Source: Naegleria gruberi
Lineage: Eukaryota
Direction: 5' to 3' (one strand)
Length of the DNA: 64,000 nt
NCBI GenBank assembly: GCA_000004985.1
Contig: GG738887.1
The notes under the pieces were generated by a model. It saw nothing but the letters and a program-made list of their open reading frames with translations. It was not told the DNA's origin and made no database searches. Position numbers and translations under genes: made by a program. This document shows positions 785-63,697 of this stretch, piece after piece; within the stretch, counting starts at the first letter, position 1, and each line of letters begins with the position of its first letter.

Positions 785-1514
785 TAAAAGATTTTTTTTG
801 ATTAATATTTTTAGCGGTTTGTTTTGATGAAGTTTTTTTGTTTTCGAAAACAAGAAAATTTCCATCAAATAATGGAATGATATTTTCTTTTAAAAAATGG
901 AAGTCAATTGATACAGACAATCTGCAGTTTTCAACATTGAAAGTGCCTTAGATTCATTTCCATTCTAATTCTAGGCAAATTTGGCTTCAAAGTTAAATAA
1001 ATATTTCAACTTTTGAAATCTTCTCCAACACCAGAGCTTACTTGTTTCGAATAATGAATTTTCCATCAGAATTCTGAAAAGATTAGAACGAACGAAATCA
1101 AACAGCGATTCTCTTTGAGTTCTTTCTCCTCAGTTCCAACTAATCAATGTCTAACAATAATCGAACACTGCTTCAATCCTTAATTCCACCTAATTTAAAA
1201 ATTTCGTCATCCACCAAACCAATTATCGATATCAACACCCTCAAATTAATTTCCACATACAACCGATTCAAACTCAACTCAAAATCCGATTATTATTTTC
1301 AATTTGAATGAGAAGAAGAACTGCCGAGTATTACCATCACCCTCATCTAATTTTTCTTCCGTTTTCCCGCCAAACTTTCACTGAAGATGAAGACTGATAA
1401 AAAGCCAAGCAGTAAAATTTTGTTTTATGAACAACCCAAATTCGTCCAAGCTATCAACGTCTCATCCCAACCCAAAAAGAATTAGAAAAAAATCGCATCA
1501 ACATTTCATATACT
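785..1514. repeat. Left arm of a long inverted repeat; the homology continues into the N gap
   Basis: 785-1514 aligns by eye, with few mismatches and small indels, to the reverse complement of 62990-63697. For example, 1427-1514 'atgaacaacccaaattcgtcc...catttcatatact' matches the RC of ~62993-63087. Confidence 0.8.
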
Positions 1515-4500
1515 NNNNNNNNNNNNNNNNNNNNNNNNNNNNNNNNNNNNNNNNNNNNNNNNNNNNNNNNNNNNNNNNNNNNNNNNNNNNNNNNNNNNNN
1601 NNNNNNNNNNNNNNNNNNNNNNNNNNNNNNNNNNNNNNNNNNNNNNNNNNNNNNNNNNNNNNNNNNNNNNNNNNNNNNNNNNNNNNNNNNNNNNNNNNNN
1701 NNNNNNNNNNNNNNNNNNNNNNNNNNNNNNNNNNNNNNNNNNNNNNNNNNNNNNNNNNNNNNNNNNNNNNNNNNNNNNNNNNNNNNNNNNNNNNNNNNNN
1801 NNNNNNNNNNNNNNNNNNNNNNNNNNNNNNNNNNNNNNNNNNNNNNNNNNNNNNNNNNNNNNNNNNNNNNNNNNNNNNNNNNNNNNNNNNNNNNNNNNNN
1901 NNNNNNNNNNNNNNNNNNNNNNNNNNNNNNNNNNNNNNNNNNNNNNNNNNNNNNNNNNNNNNNNNNNNNNNNNNNNNNNNNNNNNNNNNNNNNNNNNNNN
2001 NNNNNNNNNNNNNNNNNNNNNNNNNNNNNNNNNNNNNNNNNNNNNNNNNNNNNNNNNNNNNNNNNNNNNNNNNNNNNNNNNNNNNNNNNNNNNNNNNNNN
2101 NNNNNNNNNNNNNNNNNNNNNNNNNNNNNNNNNNNNNNNNNNNNNNNNNNNNNNNNNNNNNNNNNNNNNNNNNNNNNNNNNNNNNNNNNNNNNNNNNNNN
2201 NNNNNNNNNNNNNNNNNNNNNNNNNNNNNNNNNNNNNNNNNNNNNNNNNNNNNNNNNNNNNNNNNNNNNNNNNNNNNNNNNNNNNNNNNNNNNNNNNNNN
2301 NNNNNNNNNNNNNNNNNNNNNNNNNNNNNNNNNNNNNNNNNNNNNNNNNNNNNNNNNNNNNNNNNNNNNNNNNNNNNNNNNNNNNNNNNNNNNNNNNNNN
2401 NNNNNNNNNNNNNNNNNNNNNNNNNNNNNNNNNNNNNNNNNNNNNNNNNNNNNNNNNNNNNNNNNNNNNNNNNNNNNNNNNNNNNNNNNNNNNNNNNNNN
2501 NNNNNNNNNNNNNNNNNNNNNNNNNNNNNNNNNNNNNNNNNNNNNNNNNNNNNNNNNNNNNNNNNNNNNNNNNNNNNNNNNNNNNNNNNNNNNNNNNNNN
2601 NNNNNNNNNNNNNNNNNNNNNNNNNNNNNNNNNNNNNNNNNNNNNNNNNNNNNNNNNNNNNNNNNNNNNNNNNNNNNNNNNNNNNNNNNNNNNNNNNNNN
2701 NNNNNNNNNNNNNNNNNNNNNNNNNNNNNNNNNNNNNNNNNNNNNNNNNNNNNNNNNNNNNNNNNNNNNNNNNNNNNNNNNNNNNNNNNNNNNNNNNNNN
2801 NNNNNNNNNNNNNNNNNNNNNNNNNNNNNNNNNNNNNNNNNNNNNNNNNNNNNNNNNNNNNNNNNNNNNNNNNNNNNNNNNNNNNNNNNNNNNNNNNNNN
2901 NNNNNNNNNNNNNNNNNNNNNNNNNNNNNNNNNNNNNNNNNNNNNNNNNNNNNNNNNNNNNNNNNNNNNNNNNNNNNNNNNNNNNNNNNNNNNNNNNNNN
3001 NNNNNNNNNNNNNNNNNNNNNNNNNNNNNNNNNNNNNNNNNNNNNNNNNNNNNNNNNNNNNNNNNNNNNNNNNNNNNNNNNNNNNNNNNNNNNNNNNNNN
3101 NNNNNNNNNNNNNNNNNNNNNNNNNNNNNNNNNNNNNNNNNNNNNNNNNNNNNNNNNNNNNNNNNNNNNNNNNNNNNNNNNNNNNNNNNNNNNNNNNNNN
3201 NNNNNNNNNNNNNNNNNNNNNNNNNNNNNNNNNNNNNNNNNNNNNNNNNNNNNNNNNNNNNNNNNNNNNNNNNNNNNNNNNNNNNNNNNNNNNNNNNNNN
3301 NNNNNNNNNNNNNNNNNNNNNNNNNNNNNNNNNNNNNNNNNNNNNNNNNNNNNNNNNNNNNNNNNNNNNNNNNNNNNNNNNNNNNNNNNNNNNNNNNNNN
3401 NNNNNNNNNNNNNNNNNNNNNNNNNNNNNNNNNNNNNNNNNNNNNNNNNNNNNNNNNNNNNNNNNNNNNNNNNNNNNNNNNNNNNNNNNNNNNNNNNNNN
3501 NNNNNNNNNNNNNNNNNNNNNNNNNNNNNNNNNNNNNNNNNNNNNNNNNNNNNNNNNNNNNNNNNNNNNNNNNNNNNNNNNNNNNNNNNNNNNNNNNNNN
3601 NNNNNNNNNNNNNNNNNNNNNNNNNNNNNNNNNNNNNNNNNNNNNNNNNNNNNNNNNNNNNNNNNNNNNNNNNNNNNNNNNNNNNNNNNNNNNNNNNNNN
3701 NNNNNNNNNNNNNNNNNNNNNNNNNNNNNNNNNNNNNNNNNNNNNNNNNNNNNNNNNNNNNNNNNNNNNNNNNNNNNNNNNNNNNNNNNNNNNNNNNNNN
3801 NNNNNNNNNNNNNNNNNNNNNNNNNNNNNNNNNNNNNNNNNNNNNNNNNNNNNNNNNNNNNNNNNNNNNNNNNNNNNNNNNNNNNNNNNNNNNNNNNNNN
3901 NNNNNNNNNNNNNNNNNNNNNNNNNNNNNNNNNNNNNNNNNNNNNNNNNNNNNNNNNNNNNNNNNNNNNNNNNNNNNNNNNNNNNNNNNNNNNNNNNNNN
4001 NNNNNNNNNNNNNNNNNNNNNNNNNNNNNNNNNNNNNNNNNNNNNNNNNNNNNNNNNNNNNNNNNNNNNNNNNNNNNNNNNNNNNNNNNNNNNNNNNNNN
4101 NNNNNNNNNNNNNNNNNNNNNNNNNNNNNNNNNNNNNNNNNNNNNNNNNNNNNNNNNNNNNNNNNNNNNNNNNNNNNNNNNNNNNNNNNNNNNNNNNNNN
4201 NNNNNNNNNNNNNNNNNNNNNNNNNNNNNNNNNNNNNNNNNNNNNNNNNNNNNNNNNNNNNNNNNNNNNNNNNNNNNNNNNNNNNNNNNNNNNNNNNNNN
4301 NNNNNNNNNNNNNNNNNNNNNNNNNNNNNNNNNNNNNNNNNNNNNNNNNNNNNNNNNNNNNNNNNNNNNNNNNNNNNNNNNNNNNNNNNNNNNNNNNNNN
4401 NNNNNNNNNNNNNNNNNNNNNNNNNNNNNNNNNNNNNNNNNNNNNNNNNNNNNNNNNNNNNNNNNNNNNNNNNNNNNNNNNNNNNNNNNNNNNNNNNNNN

Positions 4501-7500
4501 NNNNNNNNNNNNNNNNNNNNNNNNNNNNNNNNNNNNNNNNNNNNNNNNNNNNNNNNNNNNNNNNNNNNNNNNNNNNNNNNNNNNNNNNNNNNNNNNNNNN
4601 NNNNNNNNNNNNNNNNNNNNNNNNNNNNNNNNNNNNNNNNNNNNNNNNNNNNNNNNNNNNNNNNNNNNNNNNNNNNNNNNNNNNNNNNNNNNNNNNNNNN
4701 NNNNNNNNNNNNNNNNNNNNNNNNNNNNNNNNNNNNNNNNNNNNNNNNNNNNNNNNNNNNNNNNNNNNNNNNNNNNNNNNNNNNNNNNNNNNNNNNNNNN
4801 NNNNNNNNNNNNNNNNNNNNNNNNNNNNNNNNNNNNNNNNNNNNNNNNNNNNNNNNNNNNNNNNNNNNNNNNNNNNNNNNNNNNNNNNNNNNNNNNNNNN
4901 NNNNNNNNNNNNNNNNNNNNNNNNNNNNNNNNNNNNNNNNNNNNNNNNNNNNNNNNNNNNNNNNNNNNNNNNNNNNNNNNNNNNNNNNNNNNNNNNNNNN
5001 NNNNNNNNNNNNNNNNNNNNNNNNNNNNNNNNNNNNNNNNNNNNNNNNNNNNNNNNNNNNNNNNNNNNNNNNNNNNNNNNNNNNNNNNNNNNNNNNNNNN
5101 NNNNNNNNNNNNNNNNNNNNNNNNNNNNNNNNNNNNNNNNNNNNNNNNNNNNNNNNNNNNNNNNNNNNNNNNNNNNNNNNNNNNNNNNNNNNNNNNNNNN
5201 NNNNNNNNNNNNNNNNNNNNNNNNNNNNNNNNNNNNNNNNNNNNNNNNNNNNNNNNNNNNNNNNNNNNNNNNNNNNNNNNNNNNNNNNNNNNNNNNNNNN
5301 NNNNNNNNNNNNNNNNNNNNNNNNNNNNNNNNNNNNNNNNNNNNNNNNNNNNNNNNNNNNNNNNNNNNNNNNNNNNNNNNNNNNNNNNNNNNNNNNNNNN
5401 NNNNNNNNNNNNNNNNNNNNNNNNNNNNNNNNNNNNNNNNNNNNNNNNNNNNNNNNNNNNNNNNNNNNNNNNNNNNNNNNNNNNNNNNNNNNNNNNNNNN
5501 NNNNNNNNNNNNNNNNNNNNNNNNNNNNNNNNNNNNNNNNNNNNNNNNNNNNNNNNNNNNNNNNNNNNNNNNNNNNNNNNNNNNNNNNNNNNNNNNNNNN
5601 NNNNNNNNNNNNNNNNNNNNNNNNNNNNNNNNNNNNNNNNNNNNNNNNNNNNNNNNNNNNNNNNNNNNNNNNNNNNNNNNNNNNNNNNNNNNNNNNNNNN
5701 NNNNNNNNNNNNNNNNNNNNNNNNNNNNNNNNNNNNNNNNNNNNNNNNNNNNNNNNNNNNNNNNNNNNNNNNNNNNNNNNNNNNNNNNNNNNNNNNNNNN
5801 NNNNNNNNNNNNNNNNNNNNNNNNNNNNNNNNNNNNNNNNNNNNNNNNNNNNNNNNNNNNNNNNNNNNNNNNNNNNNNNNNNNNNNNNNNNNNNNNNNNN
5901 NNNNNNNNNNNNNNNNNNNNNNNNNNNNNNNNNNNNNNNNNNNNNNNNNNNNNNNNNNNNNNNNNNNNNNNNNNNNNNNNNNNNNNNNNNNNNNNNNNNN
6001 NNNNNNNNNNNNNNNNNNNNNNNNNNNNNNNNNNNNNNNNNNNNNNNNNNNNNNNNNNNNNNNNNNNNNNNNNNNNNNNNNNNNNNNNNNNNNNNNNNNN
6101 NNNNNNNNNNNNNNNNNNNNNNNNNNNNNNNNNNNNNNNNNNNNNNNNNNNNNNNNNNNNNNNNNNNNNNNNNNNNNNNNNNNNNNNNNNNNNNNNNNNN
6201 NNNNNNNNNNNNNNNNNNNNNNNNNNNNNNNNNNNNNNNNNNNNNNNNNNNNNNNNNNNNNNNNNNNNNNNNNNNNNNNNNNNNNNNNNNNNNNNNNNNN
6301 NNNNNNNNNNNNNNNNNNNNNNNNNNNNNNNNNNNNNNNNNNNNNNNNNNNNNNNNNNNNNNNNNNNNNNNNNNNNNNNNNNNNNNNNNNNNNNNNNNNN
6401 NNNNNNNNNNNNNNNNNNNNNNNNNNNNNNNNNNNNNNNNNNNNNNNNNNNNNNNNNNNNNNNNNNNNNNNNNNNNNNNNNNNNNNNNNNNNNNNNNNNN
6501 NNNNNNNNNNNNNNNNNNNNNNNNNNNNNNNNNNNNNNNNNNNNNNNNNNNNNNNNNNNNNNNNNNNNNNNNNNNNNNNNNNNNNNNNNNNNNNNNNNNN
6601 NNNNNNNNNNNNNNNNNNNNNNNNNNNNNNNNNNNNNNNNNNNNNNNNNNNNNNNNNNNNNNNNNNNNNNNNNNNNNNNNNNNNNNNNNNNNNNNNNNNN
6701 NNNNNNNNNNNNNNNNNNNNNNNNNNNNNNNNNNNNNNNNNNNNNNNNNNNNNNNNNNNNNNNNNNNNNNNNNNNNNNNNNNNNNNNNNNNNNNNNNNNN
6801 NNNNNNNNNNNNNNNNNNNNNNNNNNNNNNNNNNNNNNNNNNNNNNNNNNNNNNNNNNNNNNNNNNNNNNNNNNNNNNNNNNNNNNNNNNNNNNNNNNNN
6901 NNNNNNNNNNNNNNNNNNNNNNNNNNNNNNNNNNNNNNNNNNNNNNNNNNNNNNNNNNNNNNNNNNNNNNNNNNNNNNNNNNNNNNNNNNNNNNNNNNNN
7001 NNNNNNNNNNNNNNNNNNNNNNNNNNNNNNNNNNNNNNNNNNNNNNNNNNNNNNNNNNNNNNNNNNNNNNNNNNNNNNNNNNNNNNNNNNNNNNNNNNNN
7101 NNNNNNNNNNNNNNNNNNNNNNNNNNNNNNNNNNNNNNNNNNNNNNNNNNNNNNNNNNNNNNNNNNNNNNNNNNNNNNNNNNNNNNNNNNNNNNNNNNNN
7201 NNNNNNNNNNNNNNNNNNNNNNNNNNNNNNNNNNNNNNNNNNNNNNNNNNNNNNNNNNNNNNNNNNNNNNNNNNNNNNNNNNNNNNNNNNNNNNNNNNNN
7301 NNNNNNNNNNNNNNNNNNNNNNNNNNNNNNNNNNNNNNNNNNNNNNNNNNNNNNNNNNNNNNNNNNNNNNNNNNNNNNNNNNNNNNNNNNNNNNNNNNNN
7401 NNNNNNNNNNNNNNNNNNNNNNNNNNNNNNNNNNNNNNNNNNNNNNNNNNNNNNNNNNNNNNNNNNNNNNNNNNNNNNNNNNNNNNNNNNNNNNNNNNNN

Positions 7501-10500
7501 NNNNNNNNNNNNNNNNNNNNNNNNNNNNNNNNNNNNNNNNNNNNNNNNNNNNNNNNNNNNNNNNNNNNNNNNNNNNNNNNNNNNNNNNNNNNNNNNNNNN
7601 NNNNNNNNNNNNNNNNNNNNNNNNNNNNNNNNNNNNNNNNNNNNNNNNNNNNNNNNNNNNNNNNNNNNNNNNNNNNNNNNNNNNNNNNNNNNNNNNNNNN
7701 NNNNNNNNNNNNNNNNNNNNNNNNNNNNNNNNNNNNNNNNNNNNNNNNNNNNNNNNNNNNNNNNNNNNNNNNNNNNNNNNNNNNNNNNNNNNNNNNNNNN
7801 NNNNNNNNNNNNNNNNNNNNNNNNNNNNNNNNNNNNNNNNNNNNNNNNNNNNNNNNNNNNNNNNNNNNNNNNNNNNNNNNNNNNNNNNNNNNNNNNNNNN
7901 NNNNNNNNNNNNNNNNNNNNNNNNNNNNNNNNNNNNNNNNNNNNNNNNNNNNNNNNNNNNNNNNNNNNNNNNNNNNNNNNNNNNNNNNNNNNNNNNNNNN
8001 NNNNNNNNNNNNNNNNNNNNNNNNNNNNNNNNNNNNNNNNNNNNNNNNNNNNNNNNNNNNNNNNNNNNNNNNNNNNNNNNNNNNNNNNNNNNNNNNNNNN
8101 NNNNNNNNNNNNNNNNNNNNNNNNNNNNNNNNNNNNNNNNNNNNNNNNNNNNNNNNNNNNNNNNNNNNNNNNNNNNNNNNNNNNNNNNNNNNNNNNNNNN
8201 NNNNNNNNNNNNNNNNNNNNNNNNNNNNNNNNNNNNNNNNNNNNNNNNNNNNNNNNNNNNNNNNNNNNNNNNNNNNNNNNNNNNNNNNNNNNNNNNNNNN
8301 NNNNNNNNNNNNNNNNNNNNNNNNNNNNNNNNNNNNNNNNNNNNNNNNNNNNNNNNNNNNNNNNNNNNNNNNNNNNNNNNNNNNNNNNNNNNNNNNNNNN
8401 NNNNNNNNNNNNNNNNNNNNNNNNNNNNNNNNNNNNNNNNNNNNNNNNNNNNNNNNNNNNNNNNNNNNNNNNNNNNNNNNNNNNNNNNNNNNNNNNNNNN
8501 NNNNNNNNNNNNNNNNNNNNNNNNNNNNNNNNNNNNNNNNNNNNNNNNNNNNNNNNNNNNNNNNNNNNNNNNNNNNNNNNNNNNNNNNNNNNNNNNNNNN
8601 NNNNNNNNNNNNNNNNNNNNNNNNNNNNNNNNNNNNNNNNNNNNNNNNNNNNNNNNNNNNNNNNNNNNNNNNNNNNNNNNNNNNNNNNNNNNNNNNNNNN
8701 NNNNNNNNNNNNNNNNNNNNNNNNNNNNNNNNNNNNNNNNNNNNNNNNNNNNNNNNNNNNNNNNNNNNNNNNNNNNNNNNNNNNNNNNNNNNNNNNNNNN
8801 NNNNNNNNNNNNNNNNNNNNNNNNNNNNNNNNNNNNNNNNNNNNNNNNNNNNNNNNNNNNNNNNNNNNNNNNNNNNNNNNNNNNNNNNNNNNNNNNNNNN
8901 NNNNNNNNNNNNNNNNNNNNNNNNNNNNNNNNNNNNNNNNNNNNNNNNNNNNNNNNNNNNNNNNNNNNNNNNNNNNNNNNNNNNNNNNNNNNNNNNNNNN
9001 NNNNNNNNNNNNNNNNNNNNNNNNNNNNNNNNNNNNNNNNNNNNNNNNNNNNNNNNNNNNNNNNNNNNNNNNNNNNNNNNNNNNNNNNNNNNNNNNNNNN
9101 NNNNNNNNNNNNNNNNNNNNNNNNNNNNNNNNNNNNNNNNNNNNNNNNNNNNNNNNNNNNNNNNNNNNNNNNNNNNNNNNNNNNNNNNNNNNNNNNNNNN
9201 NNNNNNNNNNNNNNNNNNNNNNNNNNNNNNNNNNNNNNNNNNNNNNNNNNNNNNNNNNNNNNNNNNNNNNNNNNNNNNNNNNNNNNNNNNNNNNNNNNNN
9301 NNNNNNNNNNNNNNNNNNNNNNNNNNNNNNNNNNNNNNNNNNNNNNNNNNNNNNNNNNNNNNNNNNNNNNNNNNNNNNNNNNNNNNNNNNNNNNNNNNNN
9401 NNNNNNNNNNNNNNNNNNNNNNNNNNNNNNNNNNNNNNNNNNNNNNNNNNNNNNNNNNNNNNNNNNNNNNNNNNNNNNNNNNNNNNNNNNNNNNNNNNNN
9501 NNNNNNNNNNNNNNNNNNNNNNNNNNNNNNNNNNNNNNNNNNNNNNNNNNNNNNNNNNNNNNNNNNNNNNNNNNNNNNNNNNNNNNNNNNNNNNNNNNNN
9601 NNNNNNNNNNNNNNNNNNNNNNNNNNNNNNNNNNNNNNNNNNNNNNNNNNNNNNNNNNNNNNNNNNNNNNNNNNNNNNNNNNNNNNNNNNNNNNNNNNNN
9701 NNNNNNNNNNNNNNNNNNNNNNNNNNNNNNNNNNNNNNNNNNNNNNNNNNNNNNNNNNNNNNNNNNNNNNNNNNNNNNNNNNNNNNNNNNNNNNNNNNNN
9801 NNNNNNNNNNNNNNNNNNNNNNNNNNNNNNNNNNNNNNNNNNNNNNNNNNNNNNNNNNNNNNNNNNNNNNNNNNNNNNNNNNNNNNNNNNNNNNNNNNNN
9901 NNNNNNNNNNNNNNNNNNNNNNNNNNNNNNNNNNNNNNNNNNNNNNNNNNNNNNNNNNNNNNNNNNNNNNNNNNNNNNNNNNNNNNNNNNNNNNNNNNNN
10001 NNNNNNNNNNNNNNNNNNNNNNNNNNNNNNNNNNNNNNNNNNNNNNNNNNNNNNNNNNNNNNNNNNNNNNNNNNNNNNNNNNNNNNNNNNNNNNNNNNNN
10101 NNNNNNNNNNNNNNNNNNNNNNNNNNNNNNNNNNNNNNNNNNNNNNNNNNNNNNNNNNNNNNNNNNNNNNNNNNNNNNNNNNNNNNNNNNNNNNNNNNNN
10201 NNNNNNNNNNNNNNNNNNNNNNNNNNNNNNNNNNNNNNNNNNNNNNNNNNNNNNNNNNNNNNNNNNNNNNNNNNNNNNNNNNNNNNNNNNNNNNNNNNNN
10301 NNNNNNNNNNNNNNNNNNNNNNNNNNNNNNNNNNNNNNNNNNNNNNNNNNNNNNNNNNNNNNNNNNNNNNNNNNNNNNNNNNNNNNNNNNNNNNNNNNNN
10401 NNNNNNNNNNNNNNNNNNNNNNNNNNNNNNNNNNNNNNNNNNNNNNNNNNNNNNNNNNNNNNNNNNNNNNNNNNNNNNNNNNNNNNNNNNNNNNNNNNNN

Positions 10501-10780
10501 NNNNNNNNNNNNNNNNNNNNNNNNNNNNNNNNNNNNNNNNNNNNNNNNNNNNNNNNNNNNNNNNNNNNNNNNNNNNNNNNNNNNNNNNNNNNNNNNNNNN
10601 NNNNNNNNNNNNNNNNNNNNNNNNNNNNNNNNNNNNNNNNNNNNNNNNNNNNNNNNNNNNNNNNNNNNNNNNNNNNNNNNNNNNNNNNNNNNNNNNNNNN
10701 NNNNNNNNNNNNNNNNNNNNNNNNNNNNNNNNNNNNNNNNNNNNNNNNNNNNNNNNNNNNNNNNNNNNNNNNNNNNNNNN
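1515..10780. other. Assembly gap (9,266 consecutive N)
   Basis: Uninterrupted n run. The track ORFs 1427..10864(+) and 1498..10821(-) are artefacts of translating N. Confidence 0.99.
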
Positions 10781-11579: not shown

Positions 11580-11699
11580 TTTTTTTAAGGTTTTTTAAAA
11601 ATATAACCGTTACTCTATCATTCAACTTGATCATCATTTAAAAATATATTAATTAAAATAAAATAAAATATTAAAATTTATTATTATTTAAATAAAATA

Positions 11700-12764: not shown

Positions 12765-13210
12765 CTTTGAAAATTGTTATTATTGTTGTACAAGTGATGA
12801 TAAAGTAATCAGATGATGAATAATTTAATGATGATTTTTTTTTTGATTTTAATTGATATGTGTGTGATCCGAAAGTTAAAAATCATCAACAGACAAATTG
12901 TTTTTAAATTAATTGGCGATGCGACAATGTGAACTTTTTAATACATGATAACAATTCAAGAGTGTTCCAATTTCATTTTAATAGGTGTTTTTTGTAATAT
13001 TGGGAATGTAACTTGGAAATTGGTTGTTTAATTTTAAAACATTTATGCTAAGTCAGAATTTTTTAAATTCATTTACAATACAATATATTTAAAGTTAAAT
13101 AATAATTTAAAAAAAACTGTAGATGGAGTGCGTGTAGATTCTCAAACAAGAATATATTCAGTAATTTTACATTTATATCTTTTCAAAAGAATCAATTATT
13201 ATTAAAAAAA

Positions 13211-13777
13211 ATGTCATCACCAACATCACTAAATAACAAATTAAAAGTCCTATCACTCTATCGTCAAATATTAAAATTAGGAAATGAATGGGAAAAACAC
13301 TGTACCAAACAAATGACAAGTTTTCATAAGAATATCTATGAAAGACAATTTATTACATTTGAACAAGATGCACAAGATTATCATAAAGGTGATGAAGAAA
13401 TTGAACGTGAAAAGGAATATATTATTGATCAGGCAAAATCACAATTCCGATCCTTTAAAAATTTAACCAATCCAGAAGAAATTAAATCTAAAATTGAATT
13501 AGCTGAAAAAAGACTTTTATTAACTCTTCATTATGGAATTCCATTTGAAAGACCTGAACATGTAAATATTTATGATAACTTTTGGAAAGGTCAAATAGAT
13601 CCTACTTCAACAGATTATTCAGAATTTAATAGTAGTAGTACTACTACCACTACCACTACATTCAATGAATCAAATATTCATTCAATGAAAGGTTTAAATC
13701 CAAATTATGATGAATTAGAACCTAAATTTCCAACTCATAAATCTCTAGATTTAGATGAAGATGAAAATTGGAAATAA
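13211..13777 (+). CDS. LYR-motif (Complex1_LYR-like) family protein
   Basis: N-terminus 'LKVLSLYRQILKLGNEW' carries an L-x-x-LYR-x-x-LK motif. It is small and basic with an acidic/Thr-rich tail. Confidence 0.45.
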   Translation: MSSPTSLNNKLKVLSLYRQILKLGNEWEKHCTKQMTSFHKNIYERQFITFEQDAQDYHKGDEEIEREKEYIIDQAKSQFRSFKNLTNPEEIKSKIELAEKRLLLTLHYGIPFERPEHVNIYDNFWKGQIDPTSTDYSEFNSSSTTTTTTTFNESNIHSMKGLNPNYDELEPKFPTHKSLDLDEDENWK

Positions 13778-17397: not shown

Positions 17398-19125
17398 ATG
17401 ACTAAAAAGAAGGAGAAAAAGGTTGAAGAAAAGAAAGTGGTGGTAGAAGAAAAGAAACCAGAGCCTGAAAAACCTAAAAAGTCCTTAACACCATCATTCT
17501 TCTCAAGGAAAAAGAAGGATGATAAGAAGCAAGATGCCCAAACACCATCAACTCCAGGTTCTTCACAAATCTTTGAACAACAACCAACAACACCAAGAGA
17601 CGCAACAAGTAGTGAACAAACACCTGTAGTATTATCTTCCGATAATCATTTACTTGAAGATACAACAACTCAAGCCTCCACAACTCTTCAAAGTGATGAA
17701 GTTTCTACTACTTCAGGAACAACAACAACTGATGATAGTATGCTCAATAGTACAAGTGATGTTCCTGTTATTACAAATAATGAACCAATTTCATCATTAG
17801 AATTAATTAATACAACCACAACTGTAATGACTGAACAATATCAAGAAAATAATTTGGGTGATTCTGTTCAATCTATTGATACTACATTAACTTCAAGTCA
17901 AATTAATGATTCAATGCTTGCTTCTGTTACAAGTGTAGAATCAAGTCCAGCAACTCCTGTTGATGAAAAGAAGGAAGAAGAAACACCAGTTCAACAAGAA
18001 ACTCAACCAGTAGTTGTTGAAACTATTGTAGAAGAAAAGAAGGAAGAAATTGTTGTTGTAGAGACCACTCCAGAAGTAGTTGTTGATGAAAAGAAGGAAG
18101 AATCAGTTGTTACTGAAACTACACCAACTAGTCCAGTTGTTGTTGAAGAAAAGAAGGAAGTTGAAGTTGTTCCAGAATCTGTAGTTTCCGAAAAGAAGGA
18201 AGAAACACAAGAAACTCCAATTGTTGAAGACAAGAAGGAAGTTGTTATTGAAACACCAGTTGTTGAAGACAAGAAGGAAGAAACACCAGTTGTTGTTGAA
18301 GAAACTCAACCAGTTGTTGAAACTGTTGTAGAAAAGAAGGAAGAAGAAACACCAATTGAATCTACACCAGCTGTTACTGAATCACCAGTTGAAACAATTA
18401 TTGTAGAAGAAACTCAACCAGTTGTTGTTGAAGAAAAGAAGGAAGAAATTGTTTCCGAAAATGTTGAAACTGTTGTTGCTGAAACAACTCCAGTTCAACA
18501 AGAAGTTACTGAAGTTAGTGAAGAAAAGAAGGAAGAAACACCAGTTGTTGTTGAAGAATCTCAACCAGTTATTGAAGAAAAGAAGGAAGAATCAGTTAAG
18601 GAAGATCATGAAGCAATTTTGGAAAAGGCTTTGGAATCTACTAGTATTGAATCAATTCCAGAACCTGTTGTTGAACAACCAACTCCAGTTACTGAAACTG
18701 TTGTTGCTGAACCAACACCTGTTCCAGTTGTAACTGAAACAACTGAATCATCAGATGATCAAGATAAGAAGATTTTAGATCAAGTTACTTCTGAATTCTT
18801 TGCTGAAAAATCAGAACTCAGACAAATTGTTCATGATAAGGCTGAAACTGTTGATTTATATCATCAATATAGAGAACAAGATGAAAAGGAAAAGAAGAAA
18901 CTTTTGGAAAAACAAGAACAAACTAAGGCTGCTTCAACAAGTACTTCTACTACTACATCTACAACAACAACAGAAAAACCATCTAGTACTAAAACTACTA
19001 AAACAACTACTAAAACAACTATTGAGGAAAGTTCATCAGCTTTGAATTGGGTTATTGGTATCGGAGCTGTTGCTGCTAGTGCTGTGATAGGTATTTTCGC
19101 AGCTAAGAAATTCAAATTATTTTAA
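17398..19125 (+). CDS. Tail-anchored acidic repeat protein with about 12 tandem copies of a V-V-E-E-K-K-E-E-(T/I)-P motif and a C-terminal TM anchor
   Basis: 575-aa ORF. The repeats 'VVEEKKEE' recur at near-regular spacing. The C-terminus 'NWVIGIGAVAASAVIGIFAAKKFKLF*' is one hydrophobic helix followed by a short basic tail. Antisense and out-of-frame track ORFs in this region are repeat artefacts. Confidence 0.55.
   Translation: MTKKKEKKVEEKKVVVEEKKPEPEKPKKSLTPSFFSRKKKDDKKQDAQTPSTPGSSQIFEQQPTTPRDATSSEQTPVVLSSDNHLLEDTTTQASTTLQSDEVSTTSGTTTTDDSMLNSTSDVPVITNNEPISSLELINTTTTVMTEQYQENNLGDSVQSIDTTLTSSQINDSMLASVTSVESSPATPVDEKKEEETPVQQETQPVVVETIVEEKKEEIVVVETTPEVVVDEKKEESVVTETTPTSPVVVEEKKEVEVVPESVVSEKKEETQETPIVEDKKEVVIETPVVEDKKEETPVVVEETQPVVETVVEKKEEETPIESTPAVTESPVETIIVEETQPVVVEEKKEEIVSENVETVVAETTPVQQEVTEVSEEKKEETPVVVEESQPVIEEKKEESVKEDHEAILEKALESTSIESIPEPVVEQPTPVTETVVAEPTPVPVVTETTESSDDQDKKILDQVTSEFFAEKSELRQIVHDKAETVDLYHQYREQDEKEKKKLLEKQEQTKAASTSTSTTTSTTTTEKPSSTKTTKTTTKTTIEESSSALNWVIGIGAVAASAVIGIFAAKKFKLF
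17940..18600. repeat. Coding tandem repeat array (about 30-60 nt units, 'gaagaaaagaaggaagaa...ccagttgttgtt')
   Basis: Recurring 'gaaaagaaggaagaa' and 'ccagt(t/a)gttgttga' blocks are visible across this span. Confidence 0.7.
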
Positions 19126-20423: not shown

Positions 20424-20444
20424 TTGTATTGTACATTAAATTTT

Positions 20445-23303: not shown

Positions 23304-23392
23304 GGGTGGTTAGCTCAGCGGTAGAGCACCGGATTGCAAAGATATTTGCAGCAGACATCCGATGGTCACGTGTTCGATCCACGTACCACCCT
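23304..23392 (+). tRNA. tRNA-Cys (anticodon GCA) with a 17-nt intron 3' of anticodon position 37
   Basis: Acceptor stem gggtggt/accaccc. D-arm gctc-agcggta-gagc. Anticodon stem ccgga/tccga (one C.A mismatch). Anticodon loop 'ttGCAa[agatatttgcagcagac]a', with the intron containing 'tgcag', complementary to the anticodon region. T-arm acgtg-ttcgatc-cacgt. Discriminator t, no encoded CCA, and a 'cttcctttta' T-run just downstream. Confidence 0.75.
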
Positions 23393-39797: not shown

Positions 39798-39922
39798 GGC
39801 TTCTTGTTTCGTTTCGTTGTAGTGGTAATGATGGTGGTGATGACATTTTTTATTTGTTCTATTAATAGAAAAAGTTCATCATTTTATTTTAAAGTCTTTG
39901 ATCGGAAGAATTAGAAAAAAAA

Positions 39923-49858: not shown

Positions 49859-50234
49859 ACTCAGTTCAGAACATGTTTCAACATTGTTTAAGTAAATACA
49901 TCCAAGTAATTGTAATACATGATTTTGCAGGCAAGCTGTTAAGAATAAATGTATTCAACTGCACTATTATCCTTCAATTTTCACTTCCGTGGTCAAACAG
50001 AATTAGAAGACATCCAATATCAACTTAGCTTCCGGAGTTTAAACTTGTTGTCCAGAACAACTTCAATTCCCATAATATCCACTTAGCTTGACTAATGACA
50101 CATGACTTCCTCATATCCTAGATATTTCCAATGTGGAGTTGGTTTATTGTAAAAGGTTCGAGGATATTTCCATTTAGTTTCATTTAAATATTTCAGATGT
50201 TTGTATTTGTAATAATTTTCTCATTCAAAAAAAA

Positions 50235-50921
50235 ATGTTTAAACAAGCAATTCTTTCAGTCTTGATCGTTGCAATCATTGCTTCCTCTGCCTATGCTTCT
50301 CCTATTTTTTCTTTCGTTAAACAATTCGAAAGTGCCAACAAGAGATCTCCAACCTCTTCAAACATCTGTTGTTTGCCAAATGTCTTCTCCATGAAGGGTG
50401 TTTTCAATCAAGTTTCCATCGTTGCCAATAACAGTACCTTACAACCAGTCGATGGTGGTTTCAACTTTGTTGTTGATTACAATGCTGGTAAAATTAGACA
50501 AGATATCACTTACACAGTTGATGGAGCTGTCAATACCTATACTAATTGGGACTTTAAGATTAGTTCTTCTATTACTGTTTCCTATGATTTACAAAGTGGC
50601 AAATGTCATTGTCATAAGGTTACAGATTTCAATCAATGGGAGGCATACTGTATTCCAAATACTGGAACCGTTACCAAAGCAAAGATTGGTTCCTATGATG
50701 CTTTGAAGATTGTCAATACTCAAAATGGTGCAATTGGTACTTTCTGGACATTCAGAGAACCACAAATGGCCAATGATAAGTGTTGGATTTTGAATACCTT
50801 GGCTGTTTCTTCAACTGCTTCTCTAGAGCAAATGTATTATGATATGGTTGAAAAGGTTGATTCAAATGTTTTCACTGTCCCTGCTTCTTGTCCATCAATT
50901 AATACTTGTTTGTCTCAATAA
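50235..50921 (+). CDS. Secreted Cys-containing hypothetical protein (228 aa)
   Basis: Signal peptide 'MFKQAILSVLIVAIIASSAYA'. Eight or more Cys residues (CC..., CHC, C...C), no TM, and beta-rich composition. Confidence 0.45.
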   Translation: MFKQAILSVLIVAIIASSAYASPIFSFVKQFESANKRSPTSSNICCLPNVFSMKGVFNQVSIVANNSTLQPVDGGFNFVVDYNAGKIRQDITYTVDGAVNTYTNWDFKISSSITVSYDLQSGKCHCHKVTDFNQWEAYCIPNTGTVTKAKIGSYDALKIVNTQNGAIGTFWTFREPQMANDKCWILNTLAVSSTASLEQMYYDMVEKVDSNVFTVPASCPSINTCLSQ

Positions 50922-52795: not shown

Positions 52796-52922
52796 AATCT
52801 CTAGTAAATTACAGGTGCACAGTTTCACGCCAACTTTAATTCTTCCGTGTGACACGTTTTTGTAACTAAGAAAATGAAACATTGAACTTGAACTCATAAG
52901 TTCGCTTAAATTGTCAAAAAAA

Positions 52923-57195: not shown

Positions 57196-57259
57196 ACCTA
57201 AGCTTATTAAAATGGAAGTTTCCTATTTAGTTGATCTCTATTTTTCAAAATCAAAAACA

Positions 57260-57898: not shown

Positions 57899-58330
57899 AG
57901 TTAAATTTTCCAACATTTCATCAGTTATATCATCATCAATAATACCCACACCGGTTGGCAAATCCTTAGCTGATAATTTCGATGAGTCCTTTTTCTCTAA
58001 TTGTGCTAATCTTTCCTTGATTAATTCAACTTGTTTTTTAAATCTTTCAATCACTTCCATATTCTCAGCTATTGCCTCCACTAAATCAGAATCTTCTCCA
58101 TCAGGATCAATTTCCTTCATTTCTCTATTAGATCGTTCCAAATGATAAATCTTATTATTCAATTCACTCAAATCACATTGTGTTGTAGCAAGTAAACTTT
58201 CATATTCTTCTTTTAGACTTGGTGTTGATTGTGGTGTGGTTTGTTTTTTCCTAAAATCTGTAATATAAACACCTTCCGATACTTTTTGTTCTTTAGGAAA
58301 TGAATTTTCGTTATTTGATGAGGATTGCAT
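57893..58330 (-). CDS. Small coiled-coil protein (145 aa)
   Basis: ATG ORF. 'LSELNNKIYHLERSNREMKEI...IERFKKQVELIKERLAQLEKK' is a coiled coil with an acidic C-terminus. Its stop codon overlaps the previous gene's stop in a shared TTATAA. Confidence 0.4.
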   Translation of the reverse strand: MQSSSNNENSFPKEQKVSEGVYITDFRKKQTTPQSTPSLKEEYESLLATTQCDLSELNNKIYHLERSNREMKEIDPDGEDSDLVEAIAENMEVIERFKKQVELIKERLAQLEKKDSSKLSAKDLPTGVGIIDDDITDEMLENLTL

Positions 58331-58543
58331 TGTTTAATGTTGTTCTATTTTTTTTGATTTCTATTTTTAAACTTTAAATTACTAAATTTTATACAAAGAA
58401 TAGCTTCTATGCTCATACTTTTCATTCAATGGATTGAATTGTCATTTTGAATAAATATTTCTATTCACTTTCTTCAATTTAAAGTAGCATCTTAATTTAT
58501 GCAACGGTTCCCGCCAAAAATTTGAATTAAAAAATTTTAAAAA

Positions 58544-60262: not shown

Positions 60263-60290
60263 AATAAATTATTCAAAATTTCAAAATCAT

Positions 60291-62633
60291 TTATTCATTG
60301 TTCGAAGATGTTGATGGAGCTCCACCTGATGTTCTTGGAGTATCATTGTTGCTTTCGGAAGTGGAGGCAAATCCACCCAATAGAGAAGCAAATAAAGAGC
60401 TGGCTCCCGACGAATTACTGGAATAGTTATAATTTGGGGGGTTCAACACGCTAGGTTTTTCGTCCTTTCGTTTAAATAGTCTCTCATCTGTTTGAGAGTC
60501 GAAAACTTCCACTCTGTTCTTTGTTGGTGGTTTGTTAGTTGTTCTTGTTGGTGTTGGAGTAGCTGCTTGATCTGTTCCAAACAATTCATTGTTGAATACC
60601 TTCAATTCATTGTAAAATTTGGTATTTGGTTTGATTATATTTCTGATAGCATAAACTTCCTTGTATGCTTCTTGCAGCTTCTTATTTTCTTCTTTCATTA
60701 AATATGAAATGACTATTGTACTTGATCTACTGACACCTGCCATGCAATGTACCATACATGCAGTGCCTTGCTTTTTAGCTTCATTGATAAACTCGCGTGT
60801 TTCCTCAAAGTGAGATCTAAGGGATGCTTCATTAGTATCTTCAGCAAATATTACCATATACTTGAAATCATTCTTATGTCTTGGTGGGATATCTTTGGCA
60901 ATAGTAATAACATGTGAGACGTTTAGTGATTTGAGAAGTCTCCTAGATCCAGCTGGTGGTGCACTACTCAAAAACAAATAATCTCTAATCTTGCTTGGTT
61001 CTTCGTATGTGTATTGGAATACTATATCATTATCTTCCATATGTTTTTTGATATTTTCTTGAGGTTTCAATTCATAGTTATTAATGATTGAAAAGTTTTT
61101 CAGCTTTTTCAAAAGCATAACCTCTTCGGGTATAGATAATATTTCATTATTATCTAAGTTCAATGTTTCCAATTCGACAAGATTGCAAATTTTTGCGTCC
61201 AAACTTTCCAGCGAGTTGTGTTTCAATTTACAATTTCTAAGATTTACCAGATCATAAAAGTAGTCAGGTATAGCTCCTCTTAATCTGTTCATAGTTAAAT
61301 CGAGAGAAGTAAGATTTTTACAGCCACCAATTTTAGGGAACTCTTCCAAATAATTGTATGTCACGTCTAATCTTTCCAAGTTGGTCATTTTCGAACAATC
61401 AAACATCTTCTTCAAGTCATTTTCGCTCAAATCAATCTCTTTCAAACTCTCAAGCTCACATAACTCGTCAGGAATCTCGAATAGTCTATTAGATTTAAGC
61501 TTGAATATCTCCAGTTTTTTGAGGTTTCCAAAAGCGGGATCAATATCTTCAATATTGTTCTCTGATAAATCTAAATAAACCAAATTTACAAATTCACTAA
61601 AGTGTTCAGGAATATGTGTGATAAAATTTTTGGAAAGCACCAACTCTTCTAGTAGTGAAAGAGTTCTAACTTCTGTCGGAACACCTCTTATCTTATTATT
61701 TGAAAGTTGTAAAATTACCAATTTTGCTTGGCAAAATAATTGAGACCACCCATGTAATTTACAAGAATTGGCATATAGTTCTGATAACTGGCTCAATTGA
61801 CTCATCAAACCTTGAGTTTGTGGAAACCATTCGAATTCGTTATTGCTTACATTTAAAACCTTGAGATTGAGTAAGTTACAAATAGTTATTGGAAATGTTG
61901 TAAATCCACAACCTTCTAACATTAATTCCTTCAAAGTATCTGCCATTTTACCCAGGTCAGGCAAGGTTACCAAATCGTTCTTTGTCAAGTCTAATTTTTC
62001 AAGAGCAGAAAATTTTAACAAATCTGTTGGAAAATTTGTAAAGTAGTTATAACTTAGATTCAATTCTCTTAAAGATGTTTGTAATGGTACTGAACGTTCA
62101 CCAAATATAAAGCTCGATAAATTTGGAGACGAAACAGATATCTTATTCAAACGATTAAAACTTAGATCTAATCTTTGAAGGTTAATTTTGTTGAGTTGAA
62201 TTGGCCAATCTTTGAAATTATTTAATCTGAACTGGACATCGGTCAGTGAAGGTTCCAAAAGTTCAAAGTTTTTAGGGGGAGCAACAAGCTCACTCTTATT
62301 CATCACCAGTGTTCGTAAATTTGCTAAATTTGTTATATTTGAAGGAAGAGCTTGTATACAATGTCCAGTCAAATCTAAATGTTGTAAATTTACCAATAGA
62401 CATATCTATCATTGTTAAAACAATCAATCCAATATATATAATTATTATAAACATACTTTTGAAAGATCTCTTTCTGTGAACCTCTTAGAACTTTGATTAT
62501 CCTTTTGTATTGAAGCATTGAGTATTTTGTGAGAGTTTGCATTCTCTACCATTTTGTCAACAACTTCCCTTGGATCTTCACTTGTTGATGATCCATTCTT
62601 GGACTCAACTCTTTTGCGATAGGGTTGTAACAT
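60291..62633 (-). CDS. MAP-kinase-phosphatase-like dual-specificity phosphatase with an N-terminal leucine-rich-repeat array ('mpl' architecture), 2 exons
   Basis: Exon 1 is 62633..62457 ('MLQPYRKRVESKNG...FTERDLSK'). A GTATGT..GATAG intron of 51 nt follows (62456..62406). Exon 2 is 62405..60291: about 20 LRRs ('L..L.L..N.L..LP') and then 'VHCMAGVSRSSTIVISYLM', the DSP catalytic loop HCxxGxxRS. The LRR+DSP combination is known from Dictyostelium mpl genes. Confidence 0.75.
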
Positions 62634-62989
62634 ATTTAATAATAACAAGTCTTATTTCCAAAGTCAATTATCAACTCTGAGCTTGTTATTGTTGTAGAAA
62701 AAGTAAAAAGGCTAAACTCCAACTTTCGTCTACTATAAACAACTCTACTATTATTACTAGTTAATTTTCAAGAACAAAAAGCCTCTTGTCAATTTGAATA
62801 TAATTCCTTTCTATTTGTTTCTATATCTTCTCTCTATACAAAATTCAAATAGATGATAAACAAACTGAATTCTCTCCACTTTTTGAAAATTGATGATGAA
62901 GGCTAATGTTGTTCTCGTGAATGATGATGTACAAATCGATGACAAAGACGACAGAATGATGATGGGTCAACGAGAAACAACACGGTTGC

Positions 62990-63697
62990 TGAAAGTAATA
63001 TGAAATGTTGATGCGATTTTTTTCTAATTCTTTTTGGGTTGGGATGAGACGTTGATAGCTTGGACGAATTTGGGTTGTTCATAAAACAAAATTTTACTGC
63101 TTGGCTTTTTATCAGTCTTCATCTCTTTCAGTGAAAGTTTGGCGGGAAAACGGAAGAAAAATTAGATGAGGGTGATGGTAATACTCGGGCAGTTCTTCTT
63201 CTCATTCAAAGTGATAATAATAATCGGATTTTGAGTTGAGTTTGGATCGGTTGTATGTGGAAATTAATTTGAGGGTGTTGATATCGATAATTGGTTTGGT
63301 GACGAAATTTTTAAATTAGGTGGAATTAAGGATTGAAGCAGTGTTCGATTATTGTTAGACATTGATTAGTTGGAACTGAGGAGAAAGAACTCAAAGAGAA
63401 TCGCTGTTTGATATCATTCGTACTAATCTTTTCAGAATTCTGATGGAAAATTCATTATTCGAAACAAGTAAGCTCCCCATATTGGAGTATATTTCAAAAG
63501 TTGAAATATTTGAAGCCAAATTCTAGAATGAAAATGAATCTAAGGCACTTTCAATGTTAAAACTTCAGATTCTGTATCAATTGACTTCCATTTTTTAAAA
63601 GAAAATATCATTCCATTATTTGATGGAAATTTTCTTGTTTTCGAAAACAAAAAAACTTCACCAAAACAAACCGCTAAAAATATTAATCAAAAAAAAT
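62990..63697. repeat. Right arm of the long inverted repeat (RC of 785-1514+), ending exactly at the ATG of the next gene
   Basis: See feature 785..1514. The homology breaks at 'caaaaaaaa|TGCCAG', the A-run preceding the ATG at 63696. Confidence 0.8.

What the first reader, a model, noticed from the sequence alone, without database searches (positions are those of the whole stretch)
785..63697. Pair of about 730-bp inverted repeats bracketing the window
785-1514 (running into the N gap) and 62990-63697 are near-identical reverse complements, with a few substitutions and 1-3 nt indels. One arm lies about 140 bp downstream of the retroelement ORF2 stop. The other ends precisely at the A8 tract and ATG of the partial gene at 63696. 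The repeat has no conserved ORF of its own (a 1-nt indel breaks the only shared ATG frame). Possible explanations: (a) 3'UTR or terminal sequence of a repeat-element family present as full-length and 5'-truncated copies; (b) a duplicated promoter or 5' region of the 63696 gene family, with a retroelement inserted into one copy; (c) a large inverted segmental duplication or assembly artefact linked to the adjacent gap.
Basis: seen in the sequence. Interest (0 to 1): 0.7.

Follow-up and report, generated by a model that had tools for sequence, protein, structure and literature searches.

The report
Duplicated gene-upstream region cut by retroelement
The two inverted 0.7-kb repeats are two copies of the DNA upstream of a Naegleria gruberi replication-protein-A gene; one copy is intact and the other has a LINE retrotransposon inserted at the A-run that runs into the start codon, so the pair is an ordinary empty-site/filled-site pair and not a new kind of element.

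Summary
The inverted repeat is real. Positions 791-1514 and 62994-63697 align over 730 columns, with 684 identities, 14 substitutions and 11 indel events. The window comes from Naegleria gruberi.

The right arm fills two thirds of the 1062-bp spacer between two divergent host genes: an LRR/dual-specificity-phosphatase gene and an RPA70-like gene that starts at 63696. N. fowleri has the same gene pair with a 1246-bp spacer.

The left arm abuts the 3' end of an APE-RT-RNaseH non-LTR retrotransposon (LINE). The ORF2 in the window carries a frameshift, and its true stop is at 755-757. Related elements end the same way, 7-38 nt after the stop and directly before a T-run. The element therefore ends at 791, and the repeat is flanking DNA, not a 3' UTR.

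Four N. fowleri insertions from two families all sit at the A-run that runs into a host start codon. All are antisense to the host gene and carry 9-16 nt target-site duplications. The left junction (AGA+T8+GATTAATATT) matches the sequence upstream of the RPA70-like ATG (CA+T8+GATTAATATT).

I could not tell whether the second copy is a true inverted paralogous duplication or a mis-scaffolded allele. The LINE target preference is the more interesting by-product.

The parts
1..757 (+). 3' part of ORF2 of a non-LTR retrotransposon: the end of the RNase H domain, a CX2CX7HX4C motif and a conserved C-terminus. This copy has a frameshift near 625-640, giving an apparent stop at 643-645. The true stop is TAG 755-757.
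   Evidence: Pfam RNase_H on the tail. The matching stretch of N. gruberi P0001 is 99% identical and P0001 reads through to ...KPIYKRSEK. Full-length relatives carry Exo_endo_phos + RVT_1 + RNase_H.
758..791 (+). Short 3' UTR of the retrotransposon. It holds the hairpin GAATCTGAATAGATTC (757-772), then 18 nt, and ends in AGA.
   Evidence: The related element L001 has the same hairpin, the same 18-nt spacing and then T8. N. fowleri elements end in ...TTAGA followed by a T-run.
792..799 (+). T8 tract. It is the target-site homopolymer (A8 on the other strand) and forms the junction between the retrotransposon and the left arm.
   Evidence: T-runs flank both ends of all four N. fowleri copies as part of their target-site duplications. 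The same T8+GATTAATATT lies upstream of the ATG at 63696.
791..1514 (+). Left arm: the second copy, inverted, of the upstream region of the RPA70-like gene. It runs into the assembly gap.
1515..10780 (.). Assembly gap of 9266 N that hides the far end of the left copy.
62994..63697 (-). Right arm: the RPA70-proximal 0.7 kb of the 1062-bp spacer between two divergent host genes. It is the 'empty site'.
   Evidence: N. fowleri has the same divergent gene pair with a 1246-bp spacer. There is no target-site duplication and no A/T run at a possible far end.
63689..63696 (+). A8 run whose last A is the A of the start codon. It is the uninterrupted counterpart of the T8 at 792-799.
63696..64000 (+). 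First 101 codons of a host gene, the ortholog of the N. fowleri RPA70-like gene. It is cut by the window end.
   Evidence: Synteny in L003. Local alignment score 62 against 30.2 +/- 5.6 for shuffles, reached by 1 of 2000 shuffles. Pfam REPA_OB_2 and Rep_fac-A_C on the N. fowleri protein. No similarity to retroelement ORF1.
60291..62633 (-). Host LRR + dual-specificity-phosphatase gene (NAEGRDRAFT_80763): exon 1 at 62445-62633, an intron, and the main exon at 60291-62396. It is divergent from the RPA70-like gene.
   Evidence: Pfam hits. 100% match to N. gruberi P0060 and 67% to N. fowleri P0061. Exon 1 is conserved with N. fowleri.
822..870 (+). Imperfect 48-nt palindrome centred on TTTTCGAAAA, present in both arms (the right copy is about 63618-63666), 26-75 nt upstream of the RPA70-like ATG. 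Its function is unknown.
   Evidence: Secondary BLASTN hit. Folds of -23.1 and -22.5 kcal/mol, z about -2.7, on the strand antisense to the RPA gene.

Best explanation
The repeat is not part of a mobile element. It is the 5'-flanking (promoter and spacer) DNA of a Naegleria gruberi RPA70-like gene, and it is present twice in the assembly.

The right arm is the native, uninterrupted copy. It lies between the divergent LRR-phosphatase gene and the RPA70-like gene, and it ends at the A8 run that runs into the ATG.

The left arm is a second, inverted copy. A recently active APE-RT-RNaseH non-LTR retrotransposon inserted into it at that same A-run, antisense to the gene. Similarity between the arms therefore stops exactly at the T8/A8 tract. 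On the left, the next sequence is the retroelement's 3' end (...AAAAGA). On the right, it is the gene's ATG.

Inferred mechanism: the element's endonuclease nicks the host sense strand at the 3' end of the A-run (5'-A(n)/TG). The A-run primes reverse transcription. A second nick 9-16 nt away produces a target-site duplication that begins with the T-run.

Shown: the repeat; the element's 3' end; the identity of the flanking genes; and the insertion rule in N. fowleri.

Inferred: that the left copy has, beyond the element's 5' end and outside the window, a matching CA+T8(+GATTAAT...) followed by an RPA70-like gene or allele.

Not resolved: whether the second copy is a true paralogous inverted duplication about 62 kb away, or the other allele (a heterozygous insertion) placed wrongly next to the gap.
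For: 1. Repeat.

2. Organism and genes: the LRR-phosphatase exon is 100% identical to N. gruberi NAEGRDRAFT_80763. The ORF2 tail matches N. gruberi P0001 at 99% identity over the matching stretch.

3. The 63696 ORF is a host gene. In N. fowleri locus L003 an RPA70-like gene (Pfam REPA_OB_2, Rep_fac-A_C) is divergent from the LRR-phosphatase ortholog, and Rrp6 lies on the other side as in the window. The N-termini align with score 62 against shuffles of 30.2 +/- 5.6, reached by 1 of 2000. There is no similarity to retroelement ORF1 of L001 or of N. gruberi P0030.

4. The element ends before the T-run. Window: stop, hairpin GAATCTGAATAGATTC, 18 nt, T8. L001 has the same hairpin, 18 nt and T8, and the contig stops there. 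Two N. fowleri copies that are 99.6% identical (L002, L007) lose similarity right after ...TTAGA+T8. Two copies of a second family (L008, L009) lose it after ...CAA+T6.

5. Target rule. All four N. fowleri copies lie next to a host start codon on the opposite strand, as CAT followed by a T-run and then the element. Their duplications are T9GATATTA, T8GTTGTTC, T6AGGAGGATG and T8-9. Runs directly followed by TG that opens an ORF of at least 60 codons make up 4% of A>=5 runs, 23% of A>=7 runs and 32% of A>=8 runs. The joint chance of four such sites is about 1e-3.

6. The left junction AGA+T8+GATTAATATTTTTAGCGG equals the right-arm sequence CA+T8+GATTAATATTTTTAGCGG.

7. The spacer is about as long in N. 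fowleri (1246 bp) as in N. gruberi (1062 bp), so no insertion is needed to explain the right arm. No target-site duplication of 8 nt or more, and no A6+/T6+ run, was found for a putative insertion.
Against: The 5' junction of the retroelement and whatever lies beyond it are outside the window, so the predicted CA+T8 and second RPA70-like gene or allele were not seen.

No N. gruberi genomic DNA other than the window could be retrieved. The copy number of the repeat in the genome is therefore unknown.

The N. gruberi and N. fowleri spacers are too diverged to prove orthology. The best local alignment was reached by 8 of 200 shuffles.

The insertion rule rests on four N. fowleri copies from two families, plus sequence resemblance of the 3' ends.

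The left contig is short (1514 bases visible). It starts inside a repeated element and ends where the two arms become 100% identical. Haplotype or mis-scaffolded contigs also look like this.
Confidence: 0.72

Rival explanations
1. The repeat is the long 3' UTR or terminal region of the non-LTR retrotransposon. The right arm would then be a 5'-truncated, dead-on-arrival copy on the minus strand, inserted between the two host genes.
For: The left arm follows ORF2 on the same strand with only 34 nt between them. The G+C content of the arms (31%) is like that of the element (33%). 5'-truncated copies are common for LINEs (general knowledge).
Against: Three related families end 7-38 nt after the stop, immediately before a T-run, and their flanks then diverge. 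The window copy has the same hairpin, 18-nt spacing and T8 as L001. The right arm has no target-site duplication and no A/T tail at any possible distal end within 62601-63000. An insertion would leave an ancestral spacer of 360 bp or less, against 1246 bp in N. fowleri.
Confidence: 0.07
2. 3' transduction. A source copy of the LINE once sat, or still sits on the other allele, at the RPA70-like A-run. Read-through transcription carried the adjacent spacer along. The left arm would then be transduced DNA inserted with the LINE at an unrelated locus.
For: It would produce the same junction, AGA+T8+GATTAATATT, as seen. 3' transduction is well documented for L1 (general knowledge). It would explain an isolated inverted copy far from the gene.
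Against: No source copy is visible at the RPA70-like locus in this assembly. The arms differ by 2% substitutions and 11 indels, whereas the ORF2 tail is nearly identical to another copy. This argues that the flank is older than the insertion. Zorro3, the closest analogue, gave no 3' transduction in 30 of 30 new insertions (PMC1965478).
Confidence: 0.1
3. Assembly artefact. Contig 1-1514 is the alternative haplotype of the RPA70/LRR-phosphatase spacer, carrying a heterozygous LINE insertion, and it was mis-scaffolded in inverted orientation next to the 9.3-kb gap. This is a variant of the best explanation: the sequence has the same nature, but there is no real second locus.
For: The visible contig starts inside a multi-copy element. 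It ends 3 nt after a stretch (1385-1511) that is 100% identical to the right arm, as haplotype bubbles do. N. gruberi is reported to show mosaic heterozygosity (PMC6201504, citing Fritz-Laylin 2010). The ORF2 frameshift consists of two 1-nt deletions in or next to short homopolymer runs.
Against: Divergence of 2% plus 11 indels, including a 10-nt indel, over about 600 bp is high for alleles. My recollection of the genome paper gives an average of about 0.6%. Mate-pair scaffolding placed the contig 62 kb away in the opposite orientation, which an allele would not predict.
Confidence: 0.3
4. The repeat is an independent, non-autonomous mobile element or a solo LTR/ITR that happens to lie next to the LINE and next to the gene.
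For: There are two copies in opposite orientation with one sharp common end. An internal 48-nt palindrome lies near that end.
Against: The sharp end is fully explained by the LINE junction and the start codon. There are no terminal inverted repeats, no target-site duplication and no coding capacity. Rfam finds nothing. The adjacent element is an APE-type LINE, not an LTR or DIRS element. 62 kb of host genes lie between the arms.
Confidence: 0.04

Closest known systems
Empty-site/filled-site pairs of LINE insertions, in paralogous or allelic loci
   Same: Two near-identical copies of host DNA whose similarity stops exactly at the 3' end of a non-LTR retrotransposon in one copy. The other copy shows the uninterrupted target.
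   Different: Only the 3' junction is visible. The two copies lie in inverted orientation on one scaffold beside a gap, so paralogy and allelism cannot be told apart.
Zorro3 of Candida albicans, an L1-like LINE that integrates into genomic poly-A tracts (PMC1965478)
   Same: It inserts into short homopolymer A:T tracts. The tract is found at both ends of the element. The 5' UTR is very short. The genome is compact.
   Different: Zorro3 carries the tract as poly-A in its own sense orientation and has a poly-A tail. The Naegleria elements carry it as poly-T, have an RNase H domain, produce 9-16 nt duplications, and in 4 of 4 cases sit at the A-run that runs into a host start codon, antisense to the gene.
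Dictyostelid NLTR-A and NLTR-B elements, RNase H-bearing non-LTR retrotransposons of compact protist genomes (PMC5006619)
   Same: APE-RT-RNH architecture. The RNase H C-terminal motif is similar (FIKVKAHSNLIGNEIADKLAK against YIIKVKGHEDKENIIVDRLAK). Integration is position-specific in a gene-dense genome.
   Different: Those elements target positions upstream of tRNA genes. No tRNA gene is near either arm; the only one in the window is at 23304-23392. The host lineage is different (Amoebozoa against Heterolobosea). Relatedness beyond architecture was not tested.
DIRS-1 inverted terminal repeats
   Same: Inverted repeats of several hundred bp associated with a retroelement that has an RNase H domain.
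   Different: DIRS elements encode a tyrosine recombinase, and their ITRs flank one element. Here the element is an APE-type LINE, the ORF next to the right arm is a host RPA70-like gene, and 62 kb of host genes separate the arms.

Membership tests
LINE 3' UTR / 5'-truncated LINE copy | The sequence is part of the element: it follows ORF2 in independent copies of the family. | tested here: not met
   Relatives end 7-38 nt after the stop, just before a T-run, and their flanks then differ. Other N. gruberi copies of the same family could not be fetched.
LINE 3' UTR / 5'-truncated LINE copy | The truncated copy is bounded by a 3' tail and a target-site duplication. | tested here: not met
   No direct repeat of 8 nt or more links 63681-63740 with 62601-63000, and there is no A6+/T6+ run in 62601-63000.
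Duplicated host 5'-flanking region (paralogue or allele) | One copy sits in the ancestral gene context. | tested here: met
   The order RPA70-like, LRR-phosphatase..., Rrp6 is conserved in N. fowleri L003, and partly in L004, with a comparably long spacer.
Duplicated host 5'-flanking region (paralogue or allele) | The spacer sequence itself is orthologous between species. | tested here: inconclusive
   The best N. gruberi/N. fowleri local alignment was reached by 8 of 200 dinucleotide shuffles. There are no conserved ORFs.
Duplicated host 5'-flanking region (paralogue or allele) | The second copy is also joined to an RPA70-like gene on the far side of the inserted element. | not testable with these tools
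   The element's 5' end lies left of window position 1, and the N. gruberi assembly is not in the contig collection.
Homopolymer-tract-targeting non-LTR retrotransposons (Zorro3-like behaviour) | The same A:T tract is present at both ends of the element and in the empty site. | tested here: met
   Four N. fowleri copies show this. In the window, the 3' junction T8 corresponds to the empty-site A8 at 63689-63696. The window copy's 5' junction was not visible.
Homopolymer-tract-targeting non-LTR retrotransposons (Zorro3-like behaviour) | Membership of the L1 clade and a poly-A 3' tail, as in Zorro3. | tested here: not met
   The elements carry RNase H and end in ...AGA followed by a T-run, not poly-A. 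No RT phylogeny was made.
LTR / DIRS-type terminal repeats | The repeats flank a single element that encodes an integrase or a tyrosine recombinase. | tested here: not met
   The element has Exo_endo_phos + RVT_1 + RNase_H domains. Host genes fill the 62 kb between the arms.

The most novel reading that the evidence does not exclude
Naegleria APE-RT-RNaseH LINEs are start-codon-proximal integrators. They nick the host sense strand at the end of the A-run that runs into the ATG (5'-A(n)/TG) and insert antisense to the gene with their 5' end against the start codon. The whole promoter is thereby displaced by about 5.2-5.6 kb. For the host gene to stay expressed, the element's short 5' end would have to act as an outward-facing (bidirectional) promoter. 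The inverted repeat in this window would then be a fifth, N. gruberi example, seen as a filled site and its empty site.
Probability: 0.45. Interest if true: 0.65.

Novelty: new member of a known kind. Interest (0 to 1): 0.35.

Why it matters
The repeat itself matters mainly for assembly and annotation. It marks either an unrecognised inverted duplication of the RPA70-like upstream region or a heterozygous LINE insertion that was mis-scaffolded. It also shows that the apparent ORF2 stop in this copy comes from a frameshift.

The wider point is the insertion rule it exposed. In a genome with very little transposon DNA, LINEs appear to land precisely at the A-run that runs into host start codons. 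If this holds genome-wide, it would be a new 'safe-site' strategy for retrotransposons in compact genomes, comparable in spirit to tRNA-gene targeting in Dictyostelium and yeast. It would also raise a testable question: how do the targeted genes, which here include TELO2 and an RPA70-like gene, remain expressed?

Tried and rejected
1. Dictyostelid origin. I first took the window for Dictyostelium DNA and the element for a TRE or NLTR element. I rejected this when the ORF2 tail and the LRR-phosphatase gene matched N. gruberi proteins.

2. The 63696 ORF as ORF1 of a second element copy, which would have made the repeat a long inverted terminal repeat. The idea came from the shared 'TC-A8-TG' context with L001. 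I rejected it because there is no similarity to ORF1 of L001 or of N. gruberi P0030, while synteny and alignment point to the N. fowleri RPA70-like gene. N. fowleri elements also have no long inverted repeats.

3. A structured RNA or a tRNA target in the arms. ARAGORN and Rfam found nothing there.

4. A conserved small ORF in the spacer. tblastx against N. fowleri and L006 was negative.

5. Retrieving more N. gruberi DNA. All attempts failed: exact-protein look-ups for window ORFs and N. gruberi proteins, a 24-mer scan of metagenome contigs, and a protein-pattern scan of metagenome contigs.

6. The word-index protein search missed even a relative whose matching stretch is 99% identical (compared). 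Its negative results therefore carry no weight.


Full report
OBSERVATION

The inverted repeat exists. The repeat finder returns five collinear inverted segments between 791-1511 and 62998-63697, each 96-100% complementary. Gapped BLASTN joins them into one alignment, 791-1514 against 62994-63697, with 684 identities in 730 columns. A global alignment counts 14 substitutions and 11 indel events of 1-10 nt, which is 98.0% identity in aligned columns. The sequence has 31% G+C, is not simple sequence, and occurs nowhere else in the window. The left arm runs into a gap of 9266 N (1515-10780), so its true length is unknown.

ORGANISM AND GENES

I first took the window for dictyostelid DNA. It is Naegleria gruberi.
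- The 214-residue ORF2 tail (1-645) matches N. gruberi protein P0001 (XP_002669524) at 99% identity over the matching stretch.
- The large minus-strand exon at 60291-62396 is 100% identical to NAEGRDRAFT_80763, an LRR plus dual-specificity-phosphatase protein.
- Its first exon starts at 62633, so the spacer to the ATG at 63696 is 1062 bp. The right arm occupies the 0.7 kb of this spacer nearest that ATG.

THE RETROELEMENT

Relatives of the ORF2 tail carry Exo_endo_phos, RVT_1 and RNase_H domains, followed by a CX2CX7HX4C motif. It is therefore an APE-type non-LTR retrotransposon with RNase H.

Comparison with P0001 shows that the window copy has a frameshift near 625-640. In the correct frame the protein continues with ...NVLKKWPEIQAAISKFIGRAFLIYQIDSKPIYKRSEK. 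This C-terminus is conserved in all relatives, and the true stop is TAG 755-757. Only 34 nt then separate the stop from the repeat.

WHERE THE ELEMENT ENDS

- L001, a related full-length element from a Logan assembly, has directly after its stop codon the same hairpin GAATCTGAATAGATTC, then 18 nt, then T8. The contig ends there. The window has the hairpin, 18 nt and T8 (792-799).
- In N. fowleri, two copies of one family (L002, L007) are 99.6% identical from just upstream of the element's 5' end to ...AACTAATTAGA+T8. Their flanks then diverge.
- Two copies of a second N. fowleri family (L008, L009) lose similarity after ...TTTTTTCAA+T6.

These elements therefore have 3' UTRs of 7-38 nt, and the T-run marks the boundary. 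The 0.7-kb repeat lies outside the element, which rules out the 3'-UTR reading.

THE T-RUN IS TARGET DNA

All four N. fowleri copies are flanked by a duplication that starts with the T-run:
- L007: T9GATATTA
- L008: T8GTTGTTC
- L009: T6AGGAGGATG
- L002: T8-9 only

In all four, the upstream copy of the run is directly preceded by CA. That gives CAT, the complement of a host gene's start codon on the other strand. The host genes are a Nas2/PDZ gene, TELO2, an unnamed gene and Img2. The elements thus sit antisense to the host gene, with their 5' ends against its ATG.

A-runs that run into the ATG are a common start context in Naegleria. In the window, 13 of 28 A8+ runs are followed by TG. In N. 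fowleri host DNA the fraction of A-runs that do so and open an ORF of at least 60 codons is 4% for A>=5, 23% for A>=7 and 32% for A>=8. Four out of four, with runs of 9, 9, 8 and 6 T's counting the T of CAT, is unlikely by run preference alone (about 1e-3). The sample is small.

THE ORF AT 63696

It is not the element's ORF1. It shows no similarity to ORF1 of L001 or to the ORF1 part of N. gruberi P0030.

In N. fowleri the LRR-phosphatase ortholog has, divergently upstream, a 692-residue RPA70-like gene (REPA_OB_2, Rep_fac-A_C). Rrp6 lies on the other side, as in the window. The two N-termini align over about 95 residues with score 62, against 30.2 +/- 5.6 for shuffles; 1 of 2000 shuffles reaches that score.

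The N. fowleri spacer is 1246 bp and its RPA ATG is also preceded by an A-run. The right arm is therefore best read as native spacer and promoter DNA. The two species' spacers cannot be aligned significantly, and they share no ORF. Treated as an insertion, the right arm would lack both a target-site duplication and a homopolymer tail.

PUTTING IT TOGETHER

- Left junction: ...AAAAGA | TTTTTTTT GATTAATATTTTTAGCGG...
- Right arm, reverse complement...CTGGCA | TTTTTTTT GATTAATATTTTTAGCGG...

The left arm is a second copy of the RPA70-like upstream region, into which the LINE inserted at the family's preferred site. The right arm is the matching empty site.

The ORF2 tail is almost identical to another genomic copy, whereas the arms differ by 2% plus 11 indels. 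The insertion therefore looks younger than the divergence between the two copies of flanking DNA.

WHAT REMAINS OPEN

I could not obtain any other N. gruberi DNA. Three things are therefore untested:
- the 5' junction of the window's element;
- the presence of a second RPA70-like gene beyond that junction;
- the genomic copy number of the repeat.

The visible left contig starts inside a multi-copy element. It ends 3 nt after a 127-nt stretch that is 100% identical to the right arm. This pattern fits a real inverted paralogous duplication whose remainder lies in the gap. It fits equally a haplotype contig carrying a heterozygous insertion that was scaffolded wrongly. A 3'-transduction origin of the left arm is a further, less likely, possibility.

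COMPARISON WITH KNOWN SYSTEMS

The situation is an ordinary filled-site/empty-site pair.

The element's behaviour most resembles Zorro3 of Candida albicans, which integrates into genomic poly-A tracts, carries the tract at both ends and has a very short 5' UTR (PMC1965478). The Naegleria elements differ in four ways: the tract is poly-T in the element's own orientation, they have RNase H, they make 9-16 nt duplications, and in the cases seen they sit at start codons.

In architecture they resemble the RNase H-bearing NLTR elements of dictyostelids, which target tRNA genes (PMC5006619).

I found nothing on Naegleria LINE target sites in the searchable literature.

VERDICT

The repeat is duplicated host upstream DNA interrupted by a LINE, so it is ordinary as a feature. 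The possible start-codon-proximal targeting of Naegleria LINEs is worth a genome-wide check.

Noticed in passing
L002 3001-8625, L007 1368-6988, L008 1888-7058, L009 1896-7128 (N. fowleri): All four LINE copies, from two families, sit directly at the A-run that runs into a host gene's start codon. They are antisense to that gene and carry 9-16 nt target-site duplications that begin with the T-run. This suggests start-codon-proximal target specificity.
   Followed up: partly
window 23304-23392 (+): Rfam finds a tRNA gene (54.7 bits, 89 nt, probably with an intron) that ARAGORN missed. It is not near either arm.
   Followed up: no
N. gruberi proteins P0001 and P0030, compared with L001 2849-4029: Gene models of two N. 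gruberi LINE subfamilies both lack the reverse-transcriptase domain and resume at the same point before RNase H. These may be RT-deleted non-autonomous derivatives, or gene models that splice out a damaged region. P0030 also fuses ORF1 to ORF2.
   Followed up: no
L002 8626-10621: Downstream of the N. fowleri LINE lies a fragment of a tyrosine-recombinase (DIRS-like) retroelement, with an RNase H ...ADRLSRL motif and a GHSLRIGASTE recombinase motif.
   Followed up: no
L004 1, L005 1, L006 1 (metagenome and Logan contigs of an unnamed Naegleria-like species): Three independent assemblies of the syntenic locus all break within the spacer, 150-492 nt upstream of the LRR-phosphatase start codon. 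This hints at a repeat or a polymorphism in the same spacer in that species.
   Followed up: no
window 822-870 and about 63618-63666: An imperfect 48-nt palindrome centred on TTTTCGAAAA lies 26-75 nt upstream of the RPA70-like ATG and is kept in both arms. The single A/G difference preserves pairing as G-U. It could be a promoter or 5'-UTR element.
   Followed up: partly
window, 28 A8+ runs (e.g. 13204-13211, 39915-39923, 50227-50235): 13 of 28 A8+ runs in the window run straight into an ATG, and 12 of those open an ORF of at least 60 codons. An A-run leader is a dominant start-codon context in N. gruberi.
   Followed up: yes
window 17961-18605: Three diverged copies of an 87-nt unit, spaced 258-300 nt apart, lie inside the ORF at 17398-19125. 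It is a repetitive E/K/V-rich protein, unrelated to the finding.
   Followed up: no
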